From Candidatus Thorarchaeota archaeon (lineage in GTDB: Archaea > Asgardarchaeota > Thorarchaeia > Thorarchaeales > Thorarchaeaceae), in contig JBHLQM010000061.1 of NCBI GenBank assembly GCA_048884785.1, forward strand, positions 2,313 to 21,699: a stretch of 19,387 bases of DNA. Reading direction: 5' to 3'. The notes below the pieces were generated by a model. That model did no database searches. It was not told the origin of the DNA and saw only the letters and a list, made by a program, of their open reading frames with translations. Within the stretch, counting starts at the first letter, position 1, and every line of letters starts with the position of its first letter. Shown piece after piece: positions 1,033-2,988 of the stretch. Both the position numbers and the translations under genes were made by a program.

Positions 1033-1809
1033 ATGAATCTAGCTGTGGAGAATCTCCTCTCAGTCAGTATGTCTGCAGTAGTATCCTTCTTCTTCACATG
1101 GCTTCTGATTTACCTTCTAGCAAAGGTACACAAGGGACGAGAATTTCATCTCATCAAGAGAAAACCTCTCATCATTCCAGCATTGGTATTCATTCTTGTT
1201 GTTGTTTTTGTTCCTCGCCAACATATTGGTCCTCCACCCGGTCTAGAATCAAATGCCATACATCTGGAGTTGCAGCGAAATGCCTATGCAGATTTTGAGG
1301 CATATGACTGGACACCTTATATCCCGAGAGCTAGAGTTGATTATTCCTATCACTTGCAGCATGCTGAAATCATCGAATGTAGCCTTCTGGTATATGAGAA
1401 TGGCAATCTCGTGACCAATGTAACGACTTCCATATACTATTCAGGCAATCCCAACAGACTGTCTTCAGCACACTCTACATTTGACCTGAATCCCGGGAAC
1501 TATACACTCAGTTTCTCGCAGAGGGTTCTGAATTCTGATGGAGCACCAACTCCATTTTTCAGAATTGTCTCAGCCTCGTTTTATCAGCTCCAAGACTACG
1601 AATGGATAGATGTGTCACTACAATGGGAACAGTATCTTCTAGTGCTCTTCGTATCGGGGTTTGGATTGCTTCTTTTTGGCATCTACGCAACAGACCACTC
1701 TCAGGACACTCCAGAGGAGAAAGAGAGATACGATCGCAAGAGACGAGGTGAACACAACTATCCTTACAGCAGGGCCTACAGACGTGCCATGCGACGACAG
1801 AGAAAGTGA
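1033..1809 (+). CDS. Hypothetical membrane protein (2 N-terminal TM helices, beta-rich extracellular domain, C-terminal TM helix, basic tail)
   Basis: 258-aa ORF with AGGT upstream, hydrophobic segments near aa 10-31, 45-60 and 200-218, N-x-T/S sequons in the loop, and an Arg-rich C-terminus. Confidence 0.8.
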   Translation: MNLAVENLLSVSMSAVVSFFFTWLLIYLLAKVHKGREFHLIKRKPLIIPALVFILVVVFVPRQHIGPPPGLESNAIHLELQRNAYADFEAYDWTPYIPRARVDYSYHLQHAEIIECSLLVYENGNLVTNVTTSIYYSGNPNRLSSAHSTFDLNPGNYTLSFSQRVLNSDGAPTPFFRIVSASFYQLQDYEWIDVSLQWEQYLLVLFVSGFGLLLFGIYATDHSQDTPEEKERYDRKRRGEHNYPYSRAYRRAMRRQRK

Positions 1810-1866: not shown

Positions 1867-1882
1867 AACGATAGTTTTTAAG
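1865..1882 (+). promoter_or_regulatory. Candidate archaeal BRE/TATA promoter for the putative ncRNA
   Basis: TTTTTAAG at 1875-1882 with a purine-leaning GCAACGATAG upstream. The expected start ~25 nt downstream (1905-1910) coincides with the start of the structured region. Confidence 0.5.
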
Positions 1883-1907
1883 GAGCTACTTCCTAATAGT
1901 ATATAAT

Positions 1908-2190
1908 AGTCCAACCCGAAAACGGGTTTGATGGTCGCACGCCCACCTCTCTTCTATGATACCGGGCAGGTTCCGTAGACCGAAAGTTATAACTAGAGTC
2001 GGGACCTATCTCAGTATTGAGGACCTAAGGGCGAAGAAACCGATAACGTGAGTCGACCTGTTCTTTGGCGTGCGGATCAGGTCTTGCATCTGTCTCAAAA
2101 TAGATAGAATGGAACGTGACGCAGAAAATATAGGTGGTGGCGCGGCAAGCGTCACGTTGCTTGCGGGTTTCATCGCCCACCCTATATTCG
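1908..2190 (+). ncRNA. Candidate structured non-coding RNA of unknown family (~280 nt)
   Basis: Helices read by eye: 1924-1943/2067-2084, 1964-1972/2055-2063, 2009-2013/2018-2022, 2089-2095/2102-2108, 2127-2142/2174-2188 and 2145-2150/2159-2164. Pseudoknots: 2113-2120/2151-2158 and 1913-1917/2165-2169. G-U pairs favour the + strand. About 51% GC by hand count over 1911-2190. TATA-like box upstream and T-rich tract 2191-2202 downstream. Confidence 0.68.
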
Positions 2191-2217
2191 TTGTTTTGAT
2201 TTGCTACTTCAGAGTAG
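2191..2217 (+). terminator. T-rich tract and small hairpin, probable 3' end of the ncRNA
   Basis: TTGTTTTGATTT directly follows the last stem, then a CTACT/AGTAG hairpin at 2204-2217. Confidence 0.4.
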
Positions 2218-2262
2218 TGAACCATGGTGATTTGAAGATGCAATCTTTTATGGATTAAGAGA

Positions 2263-2988
2263 TTATAATTCCCAGGCAGATTCTTTAATATCTTCGAATT
2301 GAGTGCGAGTGAGAATAATTTCATAATCAAATCCATTGGGATGAAGGAATAGCCAGTAGTGTGAAATAAAATTCGGGATGCCGGTGCTCTTCTCTATTTC
2401 ACCATAACTCGAAGAGATATACATCCCTACATCTGATTCTTGTTGATACCAACCAGCCATAAAGGTGTAAATCGATTCGTCATATGATTTACCCTGATAC
2501 CTGTAGTATCTAGGGTACTCTCCTTCTTCATCCATAATTGTGAGTTCGTTCTCAAAATGGTCATCGAAGAATTCCCAATCTCCAATTGGGAATATCAGTT
2601 TAGACAGAGTTCTTTCCAATATGCTTCTCAAGCTATATATGATATGCATACTGCTAATGCTACTCACCTTGACTTTGCCGGAATCGCCTATATTCTCAAT
2701 ATACCATTCTGTGCACATTGAGGAATTTAGATTTGGTAAATCAGAGATTCTAACAAGTATTCTTGAATTATTAAGCGGAAACCAGTATTGAAACACATCC
2801 TCTGTGCCAAAGTCTGCAAGTATCATAAAGCGATACACCAGAACCGTACCGAGAATTTGTGCCCATTCCATTGTGTTACTTTCATAGAATCCGTTTTCAA
2901 GAGTACTGGTAGGCAGAACGAAGAATCCGAAACTGCCTATAACTAGAAACACTACTAGCAGGCTCGTAAATCTTCTACTTTGTGATAT
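2263..2988 (-). CDS. Hypothetical secreted or membrane-anchored acidic protein; ORF-track start is GTG 2952, probable start is ATA 2988
   Basis: 229-aa ORF whose frame extends upstream to give ISQSRRFTSLLVVFLVIGSFGFFVLP (basic n-region plus hydrophobic helix). SD GGAGGGTGA at 3003-2995 and TATA-like TTATATAC at 3055-3048. Confidence 0.75.
   Translation of the reverse strand: MSQSRRFTSLLVVFLVIGSFGFFVLPTSTLENGFYESNTMEWAQILGTVLVYRFMILADFGTEDVFQYWFPLNNSRILVRISDLPNLNSSMCTEWYIENIGDSGKVKVSSISSMHIIYSLRSILERTLSKLIFPIGDWEFFDDHFENELTIMDEEGEYPRYYRYQGKSYDESIYTFMAGWYQQESDVGMYISSSYGEIEKSTGIPNFISHYWLFLHPNGFDYEIILTRTQFEDIKESAWEL

What the first reader, a model, noticed from the sequence alone, without database searches (positions are those of the whole stretch)
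1908..2190. Stand-alone, ~280-nt multi-helix candidate ncRNA of no recognisable family in a probable Asgard archaeon
Seen: a 453-bp gap between two convergent genes. Inside it are a TATA-like box (1875-1882), a GC-enriched 280-nt block (about 51% by hand count) and a T-rich end. Mutually compatible helices cover much of the block: GGGUUUGAU-gg-UCGCACGCC (1924-1943) with GGCGUGCGGAUCAGGUCU (2067-2084); GGGCAGGUU (1964-1972) with GACCUGUUC (2055-2063); hairpin UCUGUCU/AGAUAGA (2089-2108); AAUAUAGG..GGCG (2127-2142) with CGCC..CCUAUAUU (2174-2188); and GCAAGC/GCUUGC. Several G-U wobbles work only on the + strand, which suggests selection on RNA rather than on a DNA palindrome. Because the flanking genes converge, it cannot be the 5' leader of either annotated neighbour. 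Established: it lacks RNase P CR-I/CR-V, SRP helix 8 and a tRNA cloverleaf. Inference: an independently transcribed, possibly undescribed ribozyme or RNP scaffold.
Basis: partly seen in the sequence, partly recalled or inferred. Interest (0 to 1): 0.9.

Follow-up and report, generated by a model that had tools for sequence, protein, structure and literature searches.

The report
New tRNA-like structured RNA, Thorarchaeota
The gap holds a real gene for a folded 153-base RNA that matches no catalogued RNA family, is kept as a single copy in most genomes of one family of Asgard archaea (Thorarchaeota), and is built and apparently processed like a giant transfer RNA; its job is unknown.

Summary
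The conserved RNA is 153 nt (window 2029-2181, + strand). An acceptor-like closing helix ends in a free 3' ACC. A second helix leads into a four-way junction with three arms. Two arms carry invariant G-rich loops, CUUUGGCGUGCGG and AGGUGGUGGCGCGGCAA.

On a structure-blind alignment of 63 homologues, 91.6% of pair cells are paired (34-42% in slid controls) and 33 of 40 pairs show double changes. A covariance model finds exactly one copy in 68 of 87 Thorarchaeia genomes, all in one family, and none in 125 other Asgard genomes sampled.

In three genomes, 29-30-nt inserts that fit tRNA-type introns interrupt the larger invariant loop. Removing them restores it exactly.

It is not RNase P RNA, SRP RNA, a tRNA or a Y RNA. 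No function is shown; pairing through the G-rich loops is my best guess. This scan has already flagged the same family on other genomes.

The parts
1875..1882 (+). Probably a second, upstream promoter.
   Evidence: Read directly. It resembles the promoters of tRNA-Val, tRNA-Glu and RNase P RNA in this genome. A TATA-like word lies 105-200 nt upstream of G1 in 56 of 67 homologues.
1903..1978 (+). Segment between the two promoters, poorly conserved. It holds the hairpin AACCCGAAAACGGGUU (1913-1928), and UCGCACGCC (1935-1943) followed by CCACCU (1943-1948). These two are complementary to the P3 loop and the P5 loop.
   Evidence: Duplex with the P3 loop has z -3.4 in this lineage. Eight of 32 sequence clusters across the family have p<=0.05 for a segment complementary to one of the two loops. 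Its position and its partner loop vary between lineages.
1979..1994 (+). Proximal promoter motif ACCGAAAGTTATAACT: BRE-like CGAAAG (1981-1986) plus TATA-like TTATAA (1987-1992).
   Evidence: The same motif type lies upstream of the tRNA and SRP RNA genes of this genome. A strict pattern matches 10 of 27 tRNA upstream regions against 1.4% of random 70-mers, and matches here. It is present in 54 of 67 homologues. The TATA start lies 27-45 nt before G1 in 41 of them and 77-78 nt before G1 in one genus. RNAalifold finds no consensus helix around it.
2013..2028 (+). Predicted short 5' leader. The start site is inferred from TATA spacing and is not mapped.
   Evidence: Inference from established archaeal TATA-to-start spacing of about 26 nt. 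The two bases before G1 are AA in 56 of 68 homologues.
2029..2181 (+). Conserved 153-nt RNA (GGGCG...GCCCACC).
   Evidence: Covariance model R1 scores 156.6 bits here. It finds one copy in 68 of 87 class genomes. Covariation is shown. RNAfold z is -4.25.
2029..2039 (+). P1, 5' strand. It pairs with 2168-2178 to form the acceptor-like closing helix, which begins G-C, G-C, G-C.
   Evidence: 97.5% of cells are paired and 5 of 9 pairs show double changes, for example G-C 39 / A-U 20 at the fifth pair.
2168..2178 (+). P1, 3' strand.
2047..2053 (+). P2, 5' strand. It pairs with 2159-2165.
   Evidence: 93.7% of cells are paired and 5 of 6 pairs show double changes.
2159..2165 (+). P2, 3' strand.
2055..2083 (+). 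P3 hairpin (2055-2062 with 2076-2083), with the near-invariant 13-nt loop CUUUGGCGUGCGG (2063-2075).
   Evidence: 85.4% of cells are paired and 7 of 8 pairs show double changes. Invariant loop columns are listed.
2089..2108 (+). Its closing pair covaries (U-A 30, U-G 17, C-G 15).
   Evidence: All 6 pairs show double changes.
2113..2158 (+). P5: a 10-bp helix (2113-2122 with 2149-2158) enclosing a 26-nt loop.
   Evidence: 96.8% of cells are paired and 9 of 10 pairs show double changes.
2132..2148 (+). Invariant part of the P5 loop, AGGUGGUGGCGCGGCAA. This is where the introns sit in three other genomes.
   Evidence: Invariant columns are listed. Inserts of 29-30 nt in L083, L088 and L089 restore this sequence when removed.
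2179..2181 (+). Single-stranded 3' ACC after P1 (discriminator-like A plus CC).
   Evidence: GCCCACC is invariant. The next base is T in 52 and C in 14 of 66 homologues, never A. The tRNA genes of this genome read as ending ...NCCA.
2182..2202 (+). T-rich terminator region (TTTT at 2194-2197).
   Evidence: Read. Across the family, 59% of the 12 bases after ACC are T.

Best explanation
Shown:
- Window 2029-2181 (+) encodes a stable, structured 153-nt RNA of an uncatalogued family.
- It occurs as a single copy and was found only in one family of Thorarchaeota.
- Its layout is tRNA-like. A BRE/TATA motif of the kind upstream of this genome's tRNA and SRP RNA genes starts about 42 nt before the first conserved base.
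- The closing helix starts GGG/CCC, like many of the tRNA acceptor stems here. It is followed by an unpaired A-C-C and a T-rich stretch.
- The fold is a four-way junction with three arms.
- In three relatives, 29-30-nt inserts split the invariant loop. They fit the bulge-helix-bulge geometry of tRNA introns by hand.

Inferred:
- A short leader is removed, probably by RNase P.
- The inserts are removed by the tRNA splicing endonuclease and ligase.
- The RNA works in trans, not as a leader.

Best guess at mechanism, not shown:
- The two invariant single-stranded G-rich loops are pairing surfaces for C-rich RNA. They share the word UGGCG, and the larger one holds tandem UGG-UGG.
- Candidate partners are the RNA's own ACC tail, the C-rich stretch of a longer transcript from the upstream promoter, the NCCA 3' ends of tRNAs, or mRNAs.
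- UGGU and UGGC are the complements of ACCA and GCCA. These are the same words a T-box uses to hold a tRNA 3' end (my knowledge, not tested here).
For: Reality and strand:
- 91.6% of 2497 pair cells are paired on a MAFFT-only alignment of 63 homologues, against 34-42% in slid controls.
- 33 of 40 pairs show double changes, and 0 of 500 shuffles reach the observed values.
- G.U accounts for 9.7% of paired cells against 1.8% for A.C.
- RNAfold z is -4.25 for the core.

Distribution:
- One hit each in 68 of 87 class genomes, and in 21 of 24 high-quality genomes.
- No hit in 125 other Asgard genomes at E<=0.1.

Not a known family:
- No Rfam hit.
- RNase P RNA and SRP RNA lie elsewhere.
- ARAGORN finds nothing in the window.

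Promoter.

3' end: the tRNA genes here read as ending NCCA. This RNA ends in an invariant GCCC-A-CC followed by T or C.

Introns:
- Removing the inserts in L083, L088 (two inserts around a 3-nt exon UGG) and L089 restores AGGUGGUGGCGCGGC exactly.
- Read by hand, the bulges are GG^A and AU^U (or AC^U, AA^U), separated by a 4-position helix (AUUA/UAAG or AGGU/GCCG).

Independent gene:
- Where the usual downstream operon is present, it has its own TAATTAAG-type motif.
- In this genome that operon is absent and the flanking genes converge.

Pairing surfaces:
- Upstream C-rich segments complementary to one of the two loops reach p<=0.05 in 8 of 32 sequence clusters.
- AGGUGG can pair with the 3' CCACCU; 46 of 62 sequences keep the A-U pair.
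Against: - No transcript data.
- The loops never vary, so no covariation can support any loop contact.
- Twelve-base complements of the P5 loop, with one mismatch allowed, are no commoner than the control word in 40 family genomes.
- Pairing to 16S rRNA, RNase P RNA or SRP RNA is no better than with shuffled loops for most combinations. The strongest are SRP RNA with the P5 loop (z -2.70) and with J3/4 (z -2.68), and these were not followed up.
- The upstream complementary segment is absent or weak in about half of the lineages, and it changes partner loop.
- Four family genomes, two of them 97% and 93% complete and one a single contig, show no copy even with loose searches. The RNA may therefore be dispensable.
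- The base after ACC is never A, although the tRNA genes here encode the full CCA. It is thus not a simple tRNA mimic.
Confidence: 0.45

Rival explanations
1. It is a stable RNA that acts as a protein-binding scaffold (RNP). The invariant loops are protein recognition sites, not pairing surfaces.
For: - The 13- and 17-nt loops are invariant across 16 genera, and no enriched complementary target was found.
- It is a single copy per genome.
- tRNA-type introns are typical of long-lived RNAs (the generalisation is my knowledge).
Against: - No conserved neighbouring gene for an RNA-binding protein. The common neighbours are a small membrane protein and an FtsX-like permease.
- No K-turn or other known protein-binding motif was seen by eye.
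- No TROVE/Ro60 gene.
- The upstream complementary segments fit pairing better.
Confidence: 0.25
2. The working molecule is the long, roughly 285-nt transcript from the distal promoter. Its 5' extension pairs with and masks the G-rich loops, giving a two-state switch.
For: - A distal TATA-like box is present in 56 of 67 homologues.
- No T-tract lies between the two promoters in the sequences read.
- Complementary C-rich segments reach p<=0.05 in 8 of 32 clusters, with z -3.4 in this genome.
- RNAfold z is -2.71 for 1908-2190.
Against: - The segment between the promoters is poorly conserved.
- The complement changes position and partner loop, and is missing in many lineages.
- The conserved motif at 1979-1994 behaves as a promoter with fixed spacing to G1, not as RNA structure.
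Confidence: 0.15
3. It is a cis-acting leader or riboswitch of the downstream operon for a small membrane protein and an FtsX-like permease.
For: In roughly half of the 68 loci that operon follows the RNA on the same strand, 50-158 nt after it in the 23 loci measured.
Against: - A T-rich stretch follows the RNA, and a separate TAATTAAG-type promoter motif precedes the operon.
- In this genome and several others the RNA is kept without that operon.
- Introns sit in the invariant loop.
Confidence: 0.03
4. It is an ordinary tRNA gene hidden by several introns, as is common in Thorarchaeota.
For: - ARAGORN finds only 34 tRNA genes in this genome, with several amino acids missing.
- Earlier scan notes describe 3- to 5-intron tRNA genes in this lineage.
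- The acceptor-like P1 and the ACC end fit.
Against: - The best-conserved parts are the loops of the arms, and the arms themselves covary, which is the opposite of introns.
- P4 has a 6-nt loop with a covarying closing pair, not a 7-nt anticodon loop.
- No T-loop sequence.
- No tRNA hit at E<=10 in Rfam.
- 63 of 68 copies share one architecture without length variation of the intron type.
Confidence: 0.02

Closest known systems
tRNA-like non-coding RNAs: bacterial YrlA (Y RNA) tRNA-like domain, tmRNA tRNA-like domain, mascRNA, viral tRNA-like structures
   Same: An acceptor-like terminal helix with a single-stranded 3' tail, a multi-arm junction, and likely handling by tRNA-processing enzymes. 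This comparison rests on my knowledge of those RNAs.
   Different: - No T-arm or T-loop sequence.
- The arms and loops are much larger (153 nt).
- It ends in ACC, not ACCA.
- No Ro60/TROVE gene.
- ARAGORN reports no tmRNA.
- The third pair of P1 is G-C, not G.U.
- It is archaeal and restricted to one family.
Archaeal tRNA genes of the same genome
   Same: - The same type of BRE/TATA motif at similar spacing.
- A GGG...CCC helix followed by A-C-C and a T-rich stretch.
- Bulge-helix-bulge-type inserts of about 30 nt.
   Different: - Twice the length.
- No D, anticodon or T loops.
- Not found by ARAGORN or the Rfam tRNA model.
- The terminal A of CCA is never encoded.
NCCA-binding RNA motifs: the T-box discriminator bulge (UGGN) and the GGU of loop L15 in RNase P RNA
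   Same: The invariant loops contain UGGU once and UGGC twice, the complements of ACCA and GCCA. Those are the two commonest tRNA 3' ends in this genome. The comparison rests on my knowledge of T-box and RNase P.
   Different: - No specifier loop.
- No Rfam T-box hit.
- Not upstream of an aminoacyl-tRNA synthetase gene.
- No evidence of tRNA binding. The resemblance could be chance in a G-rich loop.
Base-pairing archaeal sRNAs with conserved loops, such as Methanosarcina mazei sRNA154. This comparison was named by an earlier scan note, e1-5646142.
   Same: An independent small gene with invariant single-stranded loops that could serve as seeds.
   Different: - No target found here.
- tRNA-like ends and introns are not features of those sRNAs.

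Membership tests
tRNA | Cloverleaf of about 76 nt with a 7-nt anticodon loop and a T-loop (UUCRANY) | tested here: not met
   ARAGORN finds none in the window. No Rfam tRNA hit at E<=10. The arm in the anticodon position has a 6-nt loop with a covarying closing pair. No T-loop sequence was seen by eye.
tRNA | 7-bp acceptor helix, discriminator base, CCA end | tested here: inconclusive
   P1 begins GGGCGCA/UGCGCCC in most homologues and is followed by A-C-C, but the final A is never encoded (0 of 66). The tRNA genes here encode CCA.
RNase P RNA (archaeal) | Match to RF00373 with the conserved regions CR-I to CR-V | tested here: not met
   No hit in the window. The genome's RNase P RNA is at C48:6076-6411, scoring 162 bits.
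SRP RNA (archaeal) | Match to RF01857, with helix 8 and the Alu domain | tested here: not met
   No hit in the window. A full-length match lies at C19:35561-35871, scoring 91.3 bits.
Y RNA / YrlA | A Ro60 (TROVE) protein is encoded in the genome | tested here: not met
   PF05731 was not found in the genome, which is 91% complete.
tmRNA | tRNA-like domain with G3.U70, plus an internal tag reading frame ending in a stop | tested here: not met
   ARAGORN reports none. The third pair of P1 is an invariant G-C. The frame through the loop has no stop inside the RNA (ORF 2070-2258).
Riboswitch or cis-acting leader | Lies in the 5' untranslated region of the gene it controls | tested here: not met
   The flanking genes converge here. 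Elsewhere the downstream operon has its own promoter-like motif.
Trans-acting base-pairing sRNA | Conserved complementary target sites | tested here: inconclusive
   No excess of 12-mer complements. No clearly outstanding rRNA, RNase P RNA or SRP RNA pairing. Short seeds and mRNA leaders were not tested.
BHB (tRNA-type) intron-containing RNA | Two 3-nt bulges separated by a 4-bp helix, with cleavage after the second bulge base; removal restores the conserved sequence | tested here: met
   Read by hand from the sequences: bulges GG^A and AU^U (or AC^U, AA^U), and a helix AUUA/UAAG or AGGU/GCCG (3 pairs plus A.G). Removal restores AGGUGGUGGCGCGGC. Splicing itself was not observed.

The most novel reading that the evidence does not exclude
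An archaeal tRNA-like RNA whose invariant loops (UGGU, UGGC, UGGC) dock the NCCA 3' ends of uncharged tRNAs, or its own ACC tail. That would make it a free-standing, trans-acting counterpart of the T-box tRNA-end sensor. It could monitor or buffer tRNA 3'-end integrity or charging in an Asgard lineage, with a longer isoform from the upstream promoter masking the loops.
Probability: 0.1. Interest if true: 0.85.

Novelty: new variant of a known kind. Interest (0 to 1): 0.62.

Why it matters
Apart from rRNA, tRNA, RNase P RNA, SRP RNA and guide RNAs, very few structured RNAs with strong comparative support are known in archaea, and I found none described for Thorarchaeota in the literature searches run here.

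- This one has unusually clean covariation.
- Its gene layout and ends are tRNA-like.
- It carries probable tRNA-type introns in a non-tRNA, including a 3-nt exon. That extends the known substrates of the splicing machinery in the lineage closest to eukaryotes.
- It gives a concrete RNA to look for in Asgard metatranscriptomes and enrichments.

If the loops prove to bind tRNA 3' ends, it would be a new way of sensing tRNA state.

Tried and rejected
Known families:
- Rfam at gathering and at E<=10 gave nothing relevant.
- ARAGORN found nothing in the window.
- RNase P RNA and SRP RNA identities are excluded; both lie elsewhere in the genome.
- No TROVE/Ro60 gene.

Coding:
- ORFs 2025-2336 (-) and 2070-2258 (+) have no Pfam match, and the covariation pattern is that of an RNA.

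- The terminal helix and the GCAAGC/GCUUGC hairpin have no support.

The motif at 1979-1994:
- I first read ACCGAAAGUUAUAAC as the loop of a conserved 5' hairpin.
- RNAalifold finds no consensus helix there, and the motif matches tRNA-type promoters. I rejected the hairpin reading.

Tertiary contacts checked by eye on the alignments, none with covariation:
- J3/4 CUUGC with GCAAG in the P5 loop.
- CUUUGG of the P3 loop with the ACCRAAAG motif.
- The UUUUGAG/CUCAAAA pairing proposed in scan note e1-5584070. It is present in only two sequences.

Trans targets:
- Exact complements of the loops in this genome are few and look coding.
- 12-mer complements are not enriched in 40 genomes.
- No clearly outstanding pairing with 16S rRNA, RNase P RNA or SRP RNA.
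- The 23S gene is not in the assembly.

Genomes without a hit:
- Loose model and pattern searches of G030, G014, G015, G074, G003 and G037 found only chance matches.

Introns:
- The intron sequence is not a dispersed repeat.

Other:
- Four literature searches and one paper look-up found no description of this RNA.

Full report
**The observation**

The window has a 453-bp gap (1810-2262) between ORF 1033-1809 on the + strand and ORF 2263-2952 on the - strand. TTTTTAAG sits at 1875-1882. G+C is 51.2% over 1908-2190 against 43.4% for the window.

The + strand of 1908-2190 folds better than shuffles (z -2.71), and the - strand less so (z -1.79). The 153-nt core alone gives z -4.25, with 0 of 200 shuffles folding as well.

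**No known family**

- Rfam 15 gives no hit at gathering thresholds in the whole window, and only a meaningless match at E<=10 in 1780-2300.
- ARAGORN finds no tRNA or tmRNA.
- The genome's RNase P RNA (C48, 162 bits) and SRP RNA (C19, 91.3 bits, full length) lie elsewhere.

**Organism and distribution**

Relatives of a window protein come from MAGs labelled Thorarchaeota.

- blastn found one match each in 31 of 36 genomes of the same family, and none in 24 genomes of other families.
- I built covariance model R1 from 20 copies. It found exactly one copy in 68 of 87 genomes of the class, all of them in family f1, and in 21 of 24 high-quality genomes.
- It found none in 125 other Asgard genomes sampled at E<=0.1. 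That search used strict filters, so the result is 'not found', not 'absent'.
- Four family genomes gave nothing even with loose model and pattern searches: G030 (one contig), G014 (97% complete), G015 and G074.

**Structure**

I aligned 63 intron-free copies with MAFFT alone (A3) and drew the structure by hand from one member.

| Measure | This structure | Controls |
|---|---|---|
| Pair cells forming standard pairs (2497 cells) | 91.6% | 34-42% when partners are slid by 1-3 columns |
| Pairs with changes on both sides | 33 of 40 | not reached by any of 500 shuffles |
| Covariation score | 0.577 | at most 0.127 when slid |

No shuffle (0 of 500) reaches any of the five measures.

G.U pairs make up 9.7% of paired cells and A.C 1.8%, so the RNA is on the + strand.

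In window coordinates the helices are:

| Element | 5' strand | 3' strand | Loop or junction |
|---|---|---|---|
| P1 | 2029-2039 | 2168-2178 | followed by unpaired ACC, 2179-2181 |
| P2 | 2047-2053 | 2159-2165 | |
| P3 | 2055-2062 | 2076-2083 | loop CUUUGGCGUGCGG |
| J3/4 | | | UUGCA |
| P4 | 2089-2095 | 2102-2108 | loop CAAAAU |
| J4/5 | | | AUGG |
| P5 | 2113-2122 | 2149-2158 | 26-nt loop; its last 17 nt, AGGUGGUGGCGCGGCAA, are invariant or nearly so |

**The block is not one unit**

A motif at 1979-1994, ACCGAAAGTTATAACT, is conserved in almost all homologues. I first took it for a hairpin loop, but RNAalifold finds no consensus helix around it.

The upstream regions of this genome's tRNA and SRP RNA genes carry the same kind of motif 30-45 nt before the mature 5' end. 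Examples are ACCAAAATCTCTATAAAC, CGAAAACTCTATAATG, GCAAAACCTTTAAC and, for SRP RNA, CCAAAATCCTTAAC.

- A strict pattern for the motif matches 10 of 27 tRNA upstream regions against 1.4% of random 70-mers, and matches here.
- Across the family it matches 54 of 67 sequences.
- Its TATA part starts 27-45 nt before G1 in 41 of them, and 77-78 nt before G1 in the g3-type sequences, which carry an inserted leader.

I therefore read it as the BRE/TATA promoter of the 153-nt RNA. That implies a leader of about 10-17 nt here; this is inference from the usual archaeal spacing.

A TATA-like word is present at a similar distance in 56 of 67 homologues. The gene probably has tandem promoters, and a longer isoform of about 285 nt may exist.

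**tRNA-like ends**

ARAGORN reads nearly all the tRNA genes of this genome as ending ...NCCA, followed by T-rich sequence. Many of them start GGGC.

The new RNA starts GGGCG and ends in an invariant GCCC-A-CC. The next base is T in 52 and C in 14 of 66 copies, never A, and the following 12 bases are 59% T. The two bases before G1 are AA in 56 of 68 copies.

**Introns**

Three copies are longer:

- G100 (L083) has one 30-nt insert.
- G063 (L088) has two 30-nt inserts separated by the three bases UGG.
- G016 (L089) has one 29-nt insert.

All lie inside the invariant P5 loop, and their removal restores AGGUGGUGGCGCGGC letter for letter. Each insert contains a hairpin.

Read by hand, they fit the bulge-helix-bulge rule:

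- Exon 1 ends ...AUUA-GG^ (or ...AGGU-GG^).
- The intron ends ...UAAG-AU^ (or AC^; for the other site ...GCCG-AU^ or AA^).
- This gives two 3-nt bulges around a 4-position helix of three pairs plus A.G.

For the second intron of G063, the helix strand AGGU is contiguous only after the first intron is removed. That suggests ordered splicing (inference). The intron sequence is not repeated elsewhere in those genomes.

One genome (L070) lacks one UGG of the loop, and one copy (L091, G096) is truncated after about 105 nt.

**Neighbours**

- In roughly half of the 68 loci the RNA is followed on the same strand by a gene for a small secreted or membrane protein and an FtsX-like permease gene.
- That operon is preceded by its own TAATTAAG-type motif, 20-35 nt before the start codon in most of the loci listed.
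- It is absent from this locus. The RNA is therefore not its leader.

**Loop partners**

The segment between the two promoters often contains a C-rich stretch complementary to one of the two loops. Here that is UCGCACGCC at 1935-1943 against the P3 loop (z -3.4), followed by CCACCU against AGGUGG.

With dinucleotide shuffles and sequences grouped into 32 clusters, 8 clusters reach p<=0.05. However, the position and the partner loop differ between lineages, and many lineages show nothing.

- Twelve-base complements of the P5 loop are not enriched in 40 family genomes.
- Pairing with 16S rRNA, RNase P RNA and SRP RNA shows nothing clearly outstanding. The strongest z values, about -2.7 for SRP RNA, were not pursued.
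- The loops contain UGGU once and UGGC twice, the complements of the ACCA and GCCA ends of this genome's tRNAs. This is a resemblance to T-box and RNase P L15 contacts recalled from memory, not a test.

**Other checks**

- No TROVE gene.
- Literature searches found no description of this RNA.

**Earlier scan notes**

The same family has been flagged before on other genomes. Follow-up agents described it as:

- a 153-154-nt spliced cloverleaf RNA (e1-5527605, e1-5646142), and
- probably the same RNA again, as an RNA upstream of an ABC-type operon (e1-5564187).

I re-derived the distribution, the covariation, the introns and the synteny independently. The promoter reading of the 1979-1994 motif, the comparison with the CCA-encoding tRNA genes and the hand fit to the bulge-helix-bulge rule are my own additions.

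**Verdict**

This is a real, well-supported gene for a new tRNA-like structured RNA restricted to one Thorarchaeota family.

- Its function is unknown.
- Pairing through the two invariant G-rich loops is my best guess (about 45%). A protein-scaffold role is the main rival.

Noticed in passing
whole genome G000 (for example C14:46354-46431, C26:39648-39756): ARAGORN reads nearly all tRNA genes as ending in a genome-encoded NCCA. Only 34 tRNA genes are found, with none for Asn, Asp, Cys, Phe, Tyr, Trp or Met. That fits tRNA genes hidden by several introns in this lineage.
   Followed up: partly
L012, L048, L049, L059, L064 and other loci of the same lineage, about 25 nt after the distal TATA: In this lineage the region just after the distal promoter reads ATG-NNN-TAT-CAC-CTA-TAG, a conserved five-codon frame (M-x-Y-H-L-stop). 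The same bases, CUAUCACCUA, are complementary to the P5 loop UAGGUGGUGG. Either reading could explain the conservation.
   Followed up: partly
L009, L018, L053, L075, L080 and other loci, 20-35 nt before the start of the gene downstream of the RNA: A recurrent CTAATTAAGG-type motif precedes the conserved gene pair for a small secreted or membrane protein and an FtsX-like permease. It looks like that operon's promoter.
   Followed up: no
G000:C19:35561-35871: The genome's SRP RNA matches Rfam RF01857 over its full length but scores 91.3 bits, just under the curated cut-off of 96.5. Standard annotation would miss it.
   Followed up: no
L091 (G096:C268) and L070 (G021:C226): One copy of the RNA is replaced by unrelated sequence after about 105 nt, from either decay or a chimeric assembly. 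Another copy lacks one UGG of the invariant loop.
   Followed up: no
window 1033-1809 (+) and 2263-2952 (-): Both genes flanking the RNA encode proteins (258 and 229 aa) with no Pfam match.
   Followed up: no
G000, whole assembly: The 16S rRNA gene runs to the end of contig C29, and no 23S rRNA gene is in the assembly.
   Followed up: no
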